A DNA stretch of 64,000 nt from Octopus vulgaris (Eukaryota), in assembly GCA_951406725.2 (NCBI GenBank), contig OX597815.1:199330001-199394000 (forward strand). The letters are read 5' to 3'. The position numbers and the translations under genes are program-made. Under the pieces are notes generated by a model. The model saw only the letters and a program-made list of their open reading frames with translations. It did not search any database and was not told the DNA's origin. Positions 5,753 to 54,475 of the stretch are shown here, one piece after another. The stretch's first letter is position 1; every line of letters starts with the position of its first letter.

Positions 5753-5910
5753 ATATATATATATATATATATATATATATATATATATATATTGTTATAT
5801 TTCGGAATGGTCATATTGCCAGTTTAGCCAATAAAAACACACGCACTATATATTTGGTGTTATTTTGCTTCAGTGATATTTATTTTTTACATTAATCTTA
5901 ATCTTATTTC

Positions 5911-5955
5911 GGCCAAAGTTCTTTCGTCACACTCCTGTGACCGCATCAGTGGTCC
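5911..5955 (-). ncRNA. Minimal hammerhead-like motif (inverted pLTR copy)
   Basis: Reverse complement of 6922-6966. Confidence 0.55.
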
Positions 5956-5977
5956 TTTGTTTTCTTCTCACTTACTT

Positions 5978-6445
5978 AAACTAAGAATTAAGGTTGTTGA
6001 AAAGCCAGGCAATCCTATCAGATCTATAATTGGTAGAAGCTATCCTTTTAGTAGAACTCTCTGTACGGATAACTATTGCACTGTATGTAGATTTAGCCCA
6101 CAAACGAACTGTAAAGCCAGAAATGTGGTCTATAGTATAAGATGTATAGAGGGACGATGCAGTAACAAGACAGTAACATACGTAGGGGAAACTGCAAGAA
6201 GCATTGGTGAGCGGGTGAATGAACATTGGAGACAACTCAAGGAAGGTAAAAGCTCATCGATTCTGTACCAACACGCCGAACAAGAACACGGGGGATCAAT
6301 CAATAACATAGAGATTAAGATATTGTCCACACATAGAACAGATGCAACAATTAGACAAATTACAGAAGCTACACATATAATAGAAAATAAACCTAGCCTG
6401 AATAGAAAACTAGAATGGAGCAATAGCGCACACCACAACATATGA
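5978..6445 (+). pseudogene. GIY-YIG endonuclease (C-terminal domain of PLE polyprotein, Naiad-like), 5'-truncated but uninterrupted
   Basis: VVEKPG..PF...C....C..C...NC..RNVVYSIRC...C....YVGETARSIGERVNEH...H...H...RQITEA..I....LNRKLEW; the first 35 aa of ORF 5873 come from the inverted repeat. Confidence 0.85.
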
Positions 6446-6921
6446 CAATAGTGGATCCTGCAAACATAATAAATACACAGGTAATTAAAGAAATAGAAAT
6501 GAATATCTATATGTGTATATATGTGTGTATATATGTATATATATGTATATGTATATGTATGTATATATATATATGTATATGTATTTTTTTTTTTTTTTTT
6601 TTTTCGATTAGATTTATTATTATTATTACTAATTTTGTTGTTATACATACATACATACAAGCATATGTAATGATAATAATAGGTGGATGTAAACACATGA
6701 ACAAAATTAGAACAAAAGCAACAACAACAAAAACAAAATACAAATTACAAGAATGTATATAACCAGAAGATACAAATATTACAGGCATCCCCCCACACAC
6801 ACACTAAATAAACATAGACGCACATAGAGATATAAGCATGCGCAAATGAAGACATACAATAGAAATACAAAATGGCTGACGGTTAGTAAGGAGAGACACA
6901 AGTAAGTGAGAAGAAAACAAA

Positions 6922-6966
6922 GGACCACTGATGCGGTCACAGGAGTGTGACGAAAGAACTTTGGCC
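6922..6966 (+). ncRNA. Minimal type-I hammerhead-like motif, core variant CUGAUGC
   Basis: ggacca CUGAUGC g gucaca-ggag-ugugac GAAA gaac UU uggcc; perfect 6-bp stem II. Confidence 0.55.
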
Positions 6967-7776
6967 GAAATAAGATTAAGATTAATGTAAAAAATAAATA
7001 TCACTGAAGCAAAATAACACCAAATATATAGTGCGTGTGTTTTTATTGGCTAAACTGGCAATATGACCATTCCGAAATATAACAATATCTGTTTCAACAC
7101 ACGACTTCACATAAAAAATCTTGCACAACAAATATTTAAACGTATATATATATATATATATATATATATATATATATATATATAGAGAGAGAGAGAGAGA
7201 GAGAGAGAGAGAGGGACAGAGAGACAGAGAGAGAGAGACATACATAAATATGAACAGGGAAAAGAATTATGCTGCATTACTGGTATCGTAGCTTAATTCT
7301 AATGGTGATACAGCTGAGAGGGGCAGGGCACCTGGTTCAGAAGAATGTTGATAGGCTCCCCAGTCAGTTTTTCTATGATGAGCTCTGGAAAAAGCAAACT
7401 TCCCCGTAGGTTGCCCCTTCTAACGTTGTAAAGATAAGTTTAAGGATAACTTTAAGTGCTGAAATATCGATTTCGACTCTTGGGTCGACCTTACAGAAAA
7501 GTGTTTTGAATTGAGCAAACAAAAAAAATCGTGATCAACTTCATGCGGATCTTAAGCAGATGCACCAAGAACCTGCTTCAAATGATTTCAGTTTTGATTA
7601 TCGTAGATTCGGAATATTAGACAAAACAGGGTTCGCTTTGCAGCAATGTTGGTGTCTAGACACACTTAGTTGCATTTTGTGACGCTCGAACGTGTGTGTG
7701 TGTGTGTGTTTGCGCACGTGAGGGTGTGGGGCTGTGCGTATATGTGTATGGATGGATGAATGGGTGGATGTATATA

Positions 7777-8273
7777 CAGGGTGGTCGGGCTTAATTTGAC
7801 GATGTTTTTTATATTTTTTTCTTTCCAGGATCAGCTTGTTTGGGTGAGTAGTCTATGGCGTTAAAGAGTATGGGAATTAAAGTTATACTTGAGAAAAAAT
7901 TTGTTGAGATGGAGAACTGGATGCCATCTGAATATTGGAAAAGTGTTACCTGCATCATGATGATTCGCACCAGGTGTCAAAAATGCCTATATCATGATTG
8001 TTGCTCAATACTCTATGAACACTATAAAGGCTGTAGTACGGGACATGGATAGCCACAACAGAGACTATGGCGCCCTGGCCAGAAGGAAGGGACATGGCAA
8101 GCATTCTGAATTCGTCTGGCAACAGATGAACAGGGCTATAGTCTCAGTTCAGACACTTATGTGGAGCTGCTGGAAACTGTAGTCAATCCCTGATTTGGAA
8201 GGATTGCTTCTGGAAGTTCATATGTGTGGCAACAATATTTGCTTTCTGGCCATACCTCCAGGAAATGCCAATG
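7777..8273 (+). mobile_element. Decayed Tc1/mariner-superfamily transposon
   Basis: TA+CAGGGTGG terminus; remnant YVELLETVVNP*..IASGSSYVWQQ...HTS; related to 36750-37470. Confidence 0.6.
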
Positions 8274-8725
8274 CTAGCACGCCGGATGAAATGCTTAGCC
8301 GTATTTCGTCTGCCGCTACGTTCTGAGTTCAAATTCCGCCGAGGTCGACTTTGCCTTTCATCCTTTTGGGTTCGATATAATCGACTTAATCCGTGTGTCT
8401 GTCCTTGTTTCTCCTCTCTGTGTTTAGCCCCTTGTGGGTAGTAAAGAAATAAGTATTTCGTCTGCCGTTACGTTCTGAGTTCAAATTCCGCCGAGCTCGA
8501 CTTTGCCTTTCATCCTTTCGGGGTCGATTAAATAAGTACCAGTTACGCACTGGGGTCGATATAATCGACTTAATCCGTTTGTCTGTCCTTGTTTCTCCTC
8601 TCTGTGTTTAGCCCCTTGTGGGTAGTAAAGAAATAAGTATTTCGTCTGCCGTTACGTTCTGAGTTCAAATTCCGCCGAGCTCGACTTTGCCTTTCATTCT
8701 TTCGGGGTCGATAAATTAAGTACCA
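8274..8725 (+). mobile_element. SINE-B tandem multimer (about 2.5 units)
   Basis: Units restart at GTATTTCGTCTGCC at 8453 and 8637 (184-bp period). Confidence 0.85.
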
Positions 8726-52006: not shown

Positions 52007-52612
52007 GGGCGGTGTGCTGGCAGAATCGTTAACACGCCGGGCGAAATGTGTGGCCGTATTTCGTCCGCCGTTACGTTCTAAGTTCAAATTCCGCCGAGGT
52101 CGACTTTGCCTTTCATCCTTTCGGGGTCGATAAATTAAGTACCAGTTACGAACTGGTGTCGATGTAATCGACTTAATCCGTTTGTCTGTCCTTGCTTGTC
52201 CCCTCTGTGTTTAGCCCATTGTGGGTAGTATAGAAATAGAAATAGGTATTTCGTCTGCTGTTACATTCTGAGTTCAAATTCCGCCGAGGTCGACTTTGCC
52301 TTTCATCCTTTCGGGGTCGATAAATTAAGTACCAGTTACGCACTGGGGTCGATGTAATCGACTTAATCCGTTTGTCTGTCCTTGTTTGTCTCCTCTGTGT
52401 TTAGCCCCTTGTGGATAGTAAAAGAAATAGGTATTTCGTCTGCCGTTACGTTCTGAGTTCAAATTCCGCCGAGGTCGACTTTGCCTTTCATCCTTTCGGG
52501 GTCGATAAATTAAGTACCAGTTACGCACTGGGGTCGATGTAATCGACTTAATCCGTTTGTCTGTCCTTGTTTGTCCCCTCTATGTTTAGCCCCTTGTGGG
52601 CAATAAAGAAAT
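52007..52612 (+). mobile_element. SINE-B trimer
   Basis: One full head, then restarts at GGTATTTCGTC at 52245 and 52430. Confidence 0.9.
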
Positions 52613-52820
52613 AAATATTTGAATCTATAGATTTCCTGTGGGATCCCCGGTTTTTACTTTTTATTGTCAAGCGAGGATCATAGTCCAACACTCCAGGATT
52701 TTTTCCTTTTTTTTTTAACTCCGAATTATTTAAAGAATTAGAAAATTTCAAATTTGGCTCACACGAATAACGTTATTTTCACATTCACTTTATTCTTTCT
52801 TATTTAGAGTACTTGAATAA

Positions 52821-53045
52821 TACGCGTGGGGTAGGTGCCGAAAAGTTCCTAGCTTTATGGGTGTCGCGAAAGACCTGGTTGGAGCCCAACTTTCCTGGTT
52901 CTTTTACAGGGCTTAGAAAAGCTGAAGGATCGCTATAATAAGTGTGTGAGTCTGAGAGAGGAATATGTTCAATAAAATCATAATTAACTGATCCTCCTGT
53001 ATTTCCTTTTACCCAAAGAAGGAACTCTTCAGCACCCCTTTTGTA
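52821..53045 (+). mobile_element. mariner-derived MITE
   Basis: Imperfect TIRs GGTGCCGAAAAGTTCCT..CTTT and AAAG.AGGAACTCTTCAGCACC; remnant resembling KLKDRYNKCVSLR.EYV. Confidence 0.65.
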
Positions 53046-53983
53046 TGCGTGTATATATATATATATATATATATATATATATATATATAGAGAGAGAGAG
53101 AGAGAGAGAGGAGGAGAGAGACAGACACACACACACACACAAGCATACACATATATAAAGATACATGCATACATAGATAATATGCATATACACACATGTG
53201 CATACATATACATACATATTGATATACGCATATACATATACGTACATGTGTGTGTGTAAGTGTGCGTGCATGTATGTGTATGTACATAAGAGCATAGCAA
53301 GAGAGAAAGAATGATTGATAGATGAACAGATAGATATAGGTATGAATATATGAATATATATATATATATATATATATATATATATATATATATATACATA
53401 CATATACATACATATATATATTTGAGTAGTTGAATGAATTGTTTTATTAAGATACATATATATATATATATATATATATATATATATATATATATAGAGA
53501 GAGAGAGAGAGAGAGAGAGAGAGATACAGATGTGTGTGTGCGTGTGTACACCTACACATCATACACACACATGCATCGCACACCCACACAAACATACACT
53601 TGAATAATGTAAGATTAAAACACGCTTCAACAAAATTTTAAACATTGAACAAAGAAAATAGGAGCGTAGAAGTTGTGTGAAACCTTTGCTGTACAACAAG
53701 TTAGTACAGGTTTTAACTCTCATTTTATAACCGGATATAATTTCATTAGTATTTAGAAATGTCCTCGTTAAATATATATTTCTATATAGAGAACCAGATA
53801 TGAGTTTGCAATTCAGAAGTTGGCTACTTACTACTTGTTGGTGAAACGAGTTATGATTTTTTAAAAAAGAGCAATTCAACATAAAGCTAAAGAATTATTC
53901 AATATTTCTTGTAGATTACGTATTTTCTAATCCTTTACGAGAAGACGACTGACAGTGAATTCGGTATCGGTCAACAGTCTTCC

Positions 53984-54027
53984 ACAGTTCGACGAAAACT
54001 GGTAGTCTGAAACTTCGAAGTTGCTGT
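53984..54027 (+). ncRNA. Minimal hammerhead-like motif with 10-nt palindromic stem III
   Basis: acagu UCGACGA aaacu-ggu-agucu GAAA cuucgaag UU gcugu. Confidence 0.55.
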
Positions 54028-54344
54028 CACACACAAACACACACACACACACACACGTAAATACAAATATATATATTATACAAAATATTCCACGTAAACC
54101 CGATGTTTCTACCTTTAAAATCAAGGAGTTACAACCTCTTGTGTGACTTTTTGCTACCCTGGTAACTATCTATCTATTTTTTCCGTGTTAATTGTTAACA
54201 AGGGAAAAATACACTCATCTATATATATATATATATATATATATATATATATATATATATATATATATATATATATATATATTATACCGGAGTAAACACA
54301 TAAATGTGAAACAAGGTGGAAAAAAGAGTACTCGGTTCCAGCAA

Positions 54345-54390
54345 AAACTGTCCGATGAACGGCAACGGGAAACTCAGAGTAACAGGTTTT
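54345..54390 (+). ncRNA. Minimal hammerhead-like motif (U4C) in module 54284-54420 between TA tracts
   Basis: aaacugu CCGAUGA acggcaacgg GAAA cuc-a-gag UA acagguuuu; stem II damaged. Confidence 0.55.
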
Positions 54391-54475
54391 GTTGAATTTT
54401 TTGCTGCTTTAAATAAAGTATATATATATATATATATATATATATATATATATATATATATATATATATATATAT

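What the first reader, a model, noticed from the sequence alone, without database searches (positions are those of the whole stretch)
5789..54420. Dense set of core-variant minimal hammerhead ribozymes on (TA)n-associated Penelope-type modules
Seen: 11 loci (5911, 6922, 12934, 18029, 19921, 24805, 26909, 29650, 34951, 53984, 54345) from about 9 unrelated sequence families share one layout: stem I, 7-nt core (+0/1 nt), stem II, GAAA, tiny stem III, UH, stem I'. Cores are CUGAUGA (x3), GUGAACA, UUGAAAA, CCGACGA (x2), CCGAUGA, UCGACGA and CUGAUGC (x2). G5, A6 and GAAA are invariant, and positions 3 and 8 can always pair (C:G, G:C, U:A, U.G). Stem III is palindromic or nearly so (AAUAUU, ACCGGU, ACGU, ACUUCGAAGU, ACUCAGAGU). 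Most modules abut or sit inside (TA)n, and several are fold-backs. Established: PLE pseudo-LTRs carry minimal type-I HHRs with palindromic stem III thought to cleave as dimers, and C3:G8 is a tertiary Watson-Crick pair. Inference: this genome has a large radiation of PLE termini or non-autonomous retrozyme-like elements. Most of their ribozymes would be missed by CUGANGA-based searches.
Basis: partly seen in the sequence, partly recalled or inferred. Interest (0 to 1): 0.85.

Follow-up and report, generated by a model that had tools for sequence, protein, structure and literature searches.

The report
Variant-core hammerheads in Penelope retrotransposon ends
The small hammerhead-ribozyme-shaped motifs are real and recur all over this animal genome as end pieces of Penelope-like jumping genes, a known arrangement; the new part is that whole high-copy families carry altered core letters, which likely slow self-cutting, though cutting was not tested.

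Summary
All 11 motifs are at the stated places, plus one missed (755+). A relaxed descriptor gives 7 window hits against 0.2 in shuffles, and 35 per Mb genome-wide against about 2; a separate canonical-core scan gives 9. The window is about threefold richer than average, not unique.

They lie in pseudo-LTRs of TA-targeting, Neptune-type Penelope-like elements (PLEs). Families B and G, and A's sister subfamilies, sit behind GIY-YIG genes; E and J end in a PLE ORF start. C, D, F, H and I are unlinked. No tandem retrozyme array was seen.

Variant cores are family states: C9 (3,235 exact copies), G3:C8 (3,220), C4 (1,113), U3:A8. A6 is not invariant: U6 makes 64 of 100 listed matches of a 30,018-copy superfamily. 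That superfamily keeps stems, C3:G8 and the GAAA box, while N7 and H17 vary, which points to selection on the fold. Copy ends do not pile up at the cut site. Loci 18029, 24805 and 53984 are decayed.

Known kind (Cervera 2014); this scan reported it on other genomes, G3:C8 included. Fixed G3:C8, C9 and U6 were not found in papers I could read; Lünse 2017 was unavailable.

The parts
752..788 (+).
   Evidence: Descriptor hit; 4 other copies among fetched loci; peptide score 88 vs shuffle maximum 39
5793..7142 (+). Family B insertion: inverted 5'-truncated pLTR copy, truncated PLE ORF, 3' UTR/pLTR and ORF-start tail, between TA arrays
   Evidence: same layout with RT in L151-L154
5911..5955 (-). 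Family B motif, C9 core, in the inverted arm
5978..6445 (+). C-terminal fragment of the PLE ORF: CX4CX2C linker and GIY-YIG endonuclease
   Evidence: Pfam PF01541 E 0.00038, 21.2 bits, under the 22.6 cut-off; 99% identical to the RT-EN frame of L151
6922..6966 (+). Family B motif, C9 core, 135 nt upstream of the ORF start codon at 7063
   Evidence: 3,235 exact pattern copies, C9 in 96 of 100 listed
12934..13026 (+). Family C motif, canonical core, long stem II; module about 12797-13059
   Evidence: 2,439 candidates; 14 of 16 displayed relatives share the core
18029..18123 (-). Family D motif, canonical core, decayed copy with a TA array in loop II
   Evidence: 5 of 5 relatives of the 5' half share the core; 8 relatives of the 3' half
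19921..19971 (-). Family E motif, G3:C8 core, 7-bp stem I; module about 19782-20095 with a partial inverted copy; tail homologous to the B ORF start
   Evidence: 3,220 exact, same core in 86 of 100; 9 of 25 identities, 1 of 2,000 shuffles
24805..24839 (-). Family F motif, canonical core, weak stems; old low-copy remnant
   Evidence: 2 candidates; 3 matches including this one
26909..26943 (+). Family A motif, C4 core; module about 26825-27050
29650..29684 (-). Family A motif, second independent copy; module 29527-29726
   Evidence: 94% identical to the first copy
34951..34994 (-). Family G motif, U3:A8 core; partial inverted copy at 35179-35258
   Evidence: endonuclease sequence upstream on the same strand in L066 and L078
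53984..54027 (+). Family H motif, decayed copy of an old family with a 10-nt palindromic stem III
   Evidence: 24 matches, control 0
54339..54394 (+). Family I motif, C4 core, 13-bp stem I with one mismatch, 2-bp stem II with a GNRA loop; module 54282-54418
   Evidence: 1,113 exact; C4 in 97 and G8 in 100 of 100 listed

Best explanation
The motifs are minimal type-I hammerhead folds in the terminal repeats (pseudo-LTRs) of TA-targeting Penelope-like retrotransposons, shown directly for some families and inferred for the rest, left behind as short solo or fold-back end fragments, and they would likely cut slowly and only as dimers or with the element's protein. SHOWN: the motif lies 0.5-1.3 kb behind GIY-YIG genes on the same strand; in B it lies 135 nt before the ORF start; copies end just past it, mostly in (TA)n; 5' ends cluster upstream of the motif. 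INFERRED, from Frangieh 2024 on another PLE: the protein nicks AT-rich DNA, starts reverse transcription internally in the ORF-start tail and copies mostly uncut RNA back to a preferred 5' stop, often with a second, inverted cDNA. That yields tens of thousands of 150-260 nt pieces that are passive after insertion. INFERRED: selection acts on the master elements and keeps the fold and the 3:8 pair, while tolerating rate-lowering changes at positions 4, 6 and 9, because fast cutting is not needed for copying.
For: Enrichment: 7 vs 0.225; 35 vs 1-3 per Mb. A core-agnostic scan gives 88 vs 22 hits, and 24 vs 0 with a hammerhead-type core and a Watson-Crick 3:8 pair (one shuffle). Gene links: B with RT, CX4CX2C linker and GIY-YIG; U6 subfamilies behind endonuclease frames in L246 and twice in L321; G in 2 of 25 loci; 17 of 30 GIY-YIG loci carry a U3:A8 motif downstream; L323 is a full element with one motif in each 456-nt repeat. 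ORF-start tails in E and J. Selection signature in 84 A-superfamily copies gathered by 3' flank only: core 3, 5, 8, 9, stems and the GAAA box at 0.90-1.00, N7 at 0.43, H17 G in only 3, fourth stem I pair swapped C-G/G-C. 59 of 87 copies begin upstream of position 3, and 3 of 87 within 3 nt of the cut site. Literature: PMC4209133, PMC8557442, PMC11167929.
Against: No cleavage was measured. No ORF link was found for C, D, F, H, I or the C4 subfamily of A itself. No E copy seen extends more than 31 nt upstream of the core, so E, I and A-C4 may be self-propagating non-autonomous families. The descriptor was tuned on the window. Monomer folding z-scores are modest (-2.9 to +0.9), and the minimum-energy homodimers mostly do not show the textbook dimer fold. 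The flank columns were anchored without gaps, which overstates flank variability. The lack of ends at the cut site fits uncut templates but also fits dead ribozymes.
Confidence: 0.75

Rival explanations
1. The fold is kept for a non-catalytic job (binding of the PLE protein, or setting where reverse transcription starts or stops), and the U6, C9, C4 and G3:C8 families no longer cut in vivo.
For: U6 in 50 of 84 and 64 of 100 A-superfamily copies; a natural A6C change strongly impairs cutting in Mg2+ (PMC7151607 passages); hammerhead mutants do not affect PLE insertion in vitro, and no RNA reads end at the cut site (PMC11167929); no pile-up of 5' ends at the cut site.
Against: H17 avoids G (3 of 84) while switching A/U, N7 is free, and G5, G8 and G12 are kept: the constraints of the cleavage chemistry. 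The 3:8 swaps are compensatory across families (C:G, U:A, G:C), and C3G/G8C partly restores cutting in a PLE hammerhead.
Confidence: 0.35
2. Some families (E, I, A-C4, C) are non-autonomous, SINE-like PLE derivatives that spread on their own short transcripts using PLE proteins in trans.
For: Tight 5' and 3' boundaries with unique flanks; 1,113 to 3,220 exact copies for I and E; no linked ORF in the loci examined; bioRxiv 10.64898/2026.07.22.740005 (abstract and part 1) argues that animal retrozymes derive from pLTRs.
Against: The same preferred 5' boundary is seen in U6 subfamilies whose full-length parent exists, so a fixed end does not prove an independent unit. Only about 50-60 E copies and about 35 I copies were viewed. 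No tandem arrays of these units were seen.
Confidence: 0.3
3. The motifs are chance matches of a loose descriptor, multiplied by transposition without selection on RNA structure.
For: The descriptor was tuned on the window; the core-agnostic version also returns 22 hits per shuffled Mb and 2 of 10 repeated groups without a hammerhead core; F and H are weak.
Against: 24 vs 0 hammerhead-type cores under the core-agnostic scan; a conserved position relative to the ORF across unrelated PLE families; the position-specific conservation pattern.
Confidence: 0.04

Closest known systems
Metazoan PLE minimal hammerheads (min-HHR), Cervera and de la Pena 2014, PMC4209133 (main text parts 1-2 of 4; supplement parts 1-2 of 3)
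   Same: Type-I topology, tiny palindromic helix III, extra base between 9 and 10.1, location in pLTRs, mostly solo truncated copies, opposite-strand pairs 100-700 bp apart, U3:A8 variant families; U3.G8 also appears in their Fig. S3.
   Different: The 56 rows of their Fig. S3 show no G3:C8, C4, U6 or C9 core (their descriptor would not find them), and no cephalopod row. Copy numbers here reach tens of thousands.
Poseidon element PAc of the green anole, Frangieh et al. 2024, PMC11167929 (passages and section 3 part 2)
   Same: Hammerhead next to the ORF start, tail made of the ORF start, AT-rich targets, uncut RNA as template.
   Different: There C3G/G8C is an engineered rescue mutant; here G3:C8 is the natural state of a 3,220-copy family. 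The elements here have the CX2-5CXXC linker of the Neptune/Nematis clades.
Natural core variants of hammerheads: U3:A8, U4C, A6C (PMC3088659 section 8 and passages; PMC7151607 passages)
   Same: Natural changes at positions 3:8, 4 and 6 are known and can keep some activity.
   Different: Those are rare viroid, phage or metagenome cases; U6, C9 and natural G3:C8 are not mentioned in the passages read.
Non-LTR retrozymes (PMC7761336 passages; bioRxiv 10.64898/2026.07.22.740005 part 1 of 5)
   Same: Short non-coding repeats with type-I hammerheads, likely PLE-derived.
   Different: Defined by tandem units with canonical hammerheads and circular RNAs; the copies here are solo or head-to-head, and circles were not tested.
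Lünse, Weinberg and Breaker 2017, PMC5785218 (not held; title seen in reference lists only)
   Same: By its title: numerous small hammerhead variants associated with PLEs that cleave as dimers.
   Different: Unknown; it may already list some of these core variants.

Membership tests
PLE minimal type-I hammerhead | Type-I three-helix layout with core and GAAA box, above chance | tested here: met
   6 of the 11 reader loci pass the strict descriptor, the others pass only by eye or by family
PLE minimal type-I hammerhead | Canonical C3-U4-G5-A6-N7-G8-A9 core or the published U3:A8 swap | tested here: inconclusive
   Met for C, D, F (canonical) and G, J (U3:A8); not met for A and I (C4), B (C9), E (G3:C8) and the U6 subfamilies
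PLE minimal type-I hammerhead | Short palindromic helix III | tested here: met
   Perfect or G.U palindromes in A, C, E, F, G, H, I, J; imperfect in B; decayed in the window's D copy
PLE minimal type-I hammerhead | Location in the pLTR of a PLE | tested here: inconclusive
   Met for B, G, U6 subfamilies of A and the L323 family; ORF-start homology for E, J; no link found for C, D, F, H, I
PLE minimal type-I hammerhead | Self-cleavage as a dimer or with protein help | not testable with these tools
   Needs assays; only contigs were offered for RNA
EN+ Penelope-like element, Neptune/Nematis type | RT followed by a C-terminal GIY-YIG endonuclease | tested here: met
   L151-L154 and L323; Pfam RVT_1 just under cut-off and GIY-YIG over cut-off on L323 ORF2; RVT_1 weak on L151
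EN+ Penelope-like element, Neptune/Nematis type | CX2-5CXXC linker before the endonuclease | tested here: met
   CX4CX2C in B, L246 and the L293 family; feature named in PMC8557442 passages
EN+ Penelope-like element, Neptune/Nematis type | pLTRs, inverted 5'-truncated copy, optional tail, (TA)n targets | tested here: met
EN+ Penelope-like element, Neptune/Nematis type | Phylogenetic placement of the RT in the clade | not tested
   No reference PLE proteins were fetched and no tree was built
Non-LTR retrozyme | Tandem array of at least two units each with a hammerhead | tested here: not met
   No tandem array in the window contains a motif; copies viewed are solo or head-to-head; the tandem case L321 carries endonuclease sequence
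Non-LTR retrozyme | Circular RNA | not testable with these tools
   No raw RNA reads available

The most novel reading that the evidence does not exclude
This genome's most abundant PLE hammerheads have fixed core changes at positions held essential (U6 in roughly 19,000 exact copies, C9, C4, natural G3:C8) and have kept them through further subfamily radiation under selection for the fold. They would be protein-assisted or non-catalytic hammerheads: a natural mutant series showing that the PLE hammerhead serves as a rate-tuned switch or protein-binding fold rather than a fast processing ribozyme.
Probability: 0.3. Interest if true: 0.7.

Novelty: new variant of a known kind. Interest (0 to 1): 0.4.

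Why it matters
What PLE hammerheads do in vivo is an open question (called a mystery in PMC7761336; dispensable for insertion in vitro in PMC11167929). Families of different ages in one genome carry canonical, U3:A8, G3:C8, C4, U6 and C9 cores, some in sister subfamilies with the same stems. That is a ready natural series for testing whether cutting is needed at all. It also shows that canonical-core censuses undercount these motifs about fourfold here (9 canonical against 35 relaxed hits per Mb), before the U6 class is added. The window itself is an ordinary repeat-rich stretch, and its copies are probably inert.

Tried and rejected
Rfam scan: no hammerhead in the 150 of 560 rows shown. The generic repeat finder was swamped by microsatellites. 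A DNA search for family B returned no candidate, not even the window's own copy, probably because its words are too common; a pattern search gave 3,235. The DNA search for D returned only the neighbouring 18191-18320 piece, a different repeat, so D rests on 5-8 relatives in fetched loci.

tblastn with the B protein found no PLE frame in the 1.5-kb flanks of L001-L120. Ten regions picked for long or paired copies gave no ORF for E, I or A-C4. A guessed pattern for E copies running on into an ORF gave 19 unrelated continuations.

A pile-up of 5' ends at the cut site was tested and not seen: 3 of 87, about what a uniform spread over 200 nt gives; the set includes window copies, some overlapping loci and alignment-edge artefacts. 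RNA: no RNA holder listed, contigs only, so no evidence either way on expression or cutting. Cofolding of identical copies did not discriminate.

The U-A versus C-G pair in stem II of the window's E copy was rejected as evidence of covariation: single-sided changes are common among copies, as CpG decay would give. The U3.G8 pair at 53989 was left undecided. Lünse 2017 and Arkhipova 2017 are not held. The host was not established; a resemblance to a cephalopod genome is recalled only and was used just as a paper search term.

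
Full report
SETTING. The window is G000:C2:199330001-199394000 of a 2.8-Gb genome in 227 contigs. 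It is 37% G+C and has many TA arrays. The host was not established by a tool.

OBSERVATION. A type-I descriptor with a relaxed core and short palindromic helix III, tuned on these loci, finds 7 hits: 755+, 5949-, 6928+, 19964-, 26913+, 29680- and 34987-. Forty block dinucleotide shuffles give a mean of 0.225 and a maximum of 1; the canonical core gives 0. 12941+ appears only when a long stem II is allowed. 18118-, 24835-, 53989+ and 54352+ fail because of an inserted TA array or a short or mismatched stem II. I label the families A (26909, 29650), B (5911, 6922), C (12934), D (18029), E (19921), F (24805), G (34951), H (53984), I (54345) and J (755, new).

IS THE WINDOW SPECIAL? In 100 evenly spread 10-kb stretches from C1-C24 the same descriptor finds 35 hits against 1, 2 and 3 in three shuffles; the canonical version finds 9 against 0, 0 and 1. 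By arithmetic that is about 90,000 motifs genome-wide, and the window is about three times richer than average. To remove the bias of asking for a core, I scanned for the helix layout with any seven letters. This gave 88 real against 22 shuffled hits, and 24 against 0 with a hammerhead-type core and a Watson-Crick 3:8 pair (one shuffle). Of 10 groups found in two or more loci, 8 had hammerhead-type cores; many of those loci were query-selected, and one group is a single place fetched twice.

FAMILY STATES. DNA searches gave 848 candidates for A, 1,024 for E, 1,203 for G, 406 for I, 2,439 for C, 15 for H and 2 for F (40 scored at most). Patterns with a free or partly free core gave whole-genome counts, with reversed controls at 0. 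B: 3,235, with C9 in 96 of the 100 listed. E: 3,220, the G3:C8 core in 86, G3 in 99 and C8 in 94 of 100. I: 1,113, C4 in 97 and G8 in 100 of 100. A superfamily: 30,018, with U6 in 64, C6 in 2 and A6 in 34 of 100; 15 carry the window's C4 core; G8 is in 98 and C3 in 97. These splits are my hand tallies of the first 100 matches on C1-C2. Alignments of the closest copies agree for A, E, G and I. For C, 14 of 16 displayed relatives share the canonical core; all 5 relatives of D's 5' half are canonical; 3 of 4 J relatives have U3:A8. H is old: 24 matches, position 3 C in 11 and U in 10. F has 3 matches under a pattern that demanded the canonical core. Contigs of four runs under four organism labels show both C and A at B's position 9 (A in 11-60% of depth), so both states are shared beyond this assembly.

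LINK TO PENELOPE-LIKE ELEMENTS. The B insertion holds a frame (5978-6445) with a CX4CX2C linker and a GIY-YIG domain, the motif in the 3' repeat, and an inverted truncated copy at its 5' end. Four of four longer B fold-backs fetched contain RT and endonuclease frames, and the motif sits 135 nt before the ORF start. Of the 30 best GIY-YIG loci fetched (of 150 scored, 6,136 candidates), 17 carry a U3:A8 motif 0.7-1.3 kb downstream on the same strand. L323 is a full element with a motif in each 456-nt repeat. U6 motifs follow endonuclease frames in L246 and twice in L321. G has endonuclease sequence upstream in 2 of 25 loci. The J tail scores 88 against the B N-terminus (shuffle maximum 39). The window's E tail scores only 36 (shuffle maximum 43) because it is mutated, but copy L032 scores 52 with 9 of 25 identities, reached by 1 of 2,000 shuffles (ten families were tried). 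No link was found for C, D, F, H, I or the C4 subfamily of A, which is tied only by homology to the U6 pLTR. The linker, TA bias, inverted 5'-truncated copies and tails match the description of Neptune/Nematis-type PLEs in PMC8557442 (passages). No tree was built.

SELECTION ON THE FOLD. I gathered 88 A-superfamily copies by their 3' flank alone; 84 could be anchored and 4 lacked the 3' half. The commonest letter reaches 0.90-1.00 at C3, G5, G8, A9, both arms of stem II, G12-A15.1, helix III and the first three pairs of stem I. It is 0.43 at N7 and 0.52 at H17 (A 44, U 36, G 3, C 1). Position 4 is U 66/C 18 and position 6 is U 50/A 31. The fourth stem I pair is C-G in some subfamilies and G-C in others. 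Flanks run from 0.33 to 0.94, inflated by ungapped anchoring. Free N7 and a non-G H17 are hallmarks of hammerhead chemistry (recalled), and they hold inside the U6 lineage, where N7 takes all four letters.

MECHANISM. Of 87 copies not selected by a full-length query, 59 start upstream of position 3 and 3 within 3 nt of the predicted cut, about what chance gives (with the caveats listed under Tried and rejected). E starts cluster at -16 to -31 and A-C4 at -73 to -85. U6 copies share a preferred start although the parent continues upstream. 3' ends abut (TA)n in most families but in only 4 of 22 E copies. This fits the model from the anole PLE: internal initiation in the ORF-start tail, uncut RNA as the main template, a hammerhead that cuts only with protein, and partial rescue by C3G/G8C (PMC11167929). 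Its transfer to this genome is inference. Head-to-head fold-backs put the two motifs on opposite strands, so they cannot form a cis dimer; tandem elements such as L321 and L323 can.

COMPARISON. PMC4209133 describes these motifs, their pLTR location, solo and opposite-strand copies, U3:A8 families and low dimer activity. Its 56-row Fig. S3 shows no G3:C8, C4, U6 or C9; figure logos in the PDF text were not readable, and part 3 of the supplement was not read. U4C and A6C are known natural variants (PMC3088659 section 8 and passages; PMC7151607 passages). PMC6765202 and PMC7761336 (passages) review the PLE case; the latter calls the in vivo role a mystery. Searches for hammerhead with Penelope and A6U, G3-C8, A9C or C3G, with core-variant terms, and with octopus or cephalopod listed no paper on these families. 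Lünse 2017, the paper most likely to list such variants, could not be read, so novelty of the variants is provisional. Earlier notes of this scan report the same kind of motif on other genomes, including one G3:C8 case (unchecked).

VERDICT. A real, genome-wide and mostly known phenomenon, with core variants fixed at high copy number that may be new and that make a good test series. New variant of a known kind; interest 0.4.

Noticed in passing
G000 genome-wide; e.g. L246:7864+, L321:1705+ and 3256+: U6-core hammerhead subfamilies make 64 of 100 listed matches of a 30,018-copy superfamily; no copy matched the anchor pattern in the window.
   Followed up: yes
L323:430-5672: Full-length PLE with two 456-nt repeats, a 359-aa upstream ORF without a convincing Pfam match and a 781-aa RT/GIY-YIG ORF; many 781-aa open frames suggest a young family.
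   Followed up: partly
   Followed up: yes
L198:96+, L203, L206, L156:1892-, L214:1658-, L186:22+, L187, L199:6070-: At least six further hammerhead-like motif types in the 1 Mb sample, with U3:A8 or canonical cores and various palindromic helix III sequences.
   Followed up: no
window 4575-4828, 8367-8725, 20415-20782, 36900-37137, 52004-52618, 59896-60155 and others: Abundant SINE-like repeat with a 184-185 nt unit, also in short tandem arrays.
   Followed up: no
window 35058-35174, 35485-35684, 46928-47425, 54452-54628: Further fold-back (palindromic) insertions; the first belongs to the G module, the others were not examined.
   Followed up: no
window 18191-18320: Separate young repeat; the best matches are 96-98% identical and mostly end in TA arrays, directly beside the D motif.
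   Followed up: no
window about 19890-19898 (+): Family E has a Pol III B-box-like nonamer on the strand opposite the hammerhead (consensus recalled); no convincing A box seen.
   Followed up: no
L326:1-567+: Open frame resembling another RT fragment, apparently of a different element.
   Followed up: no
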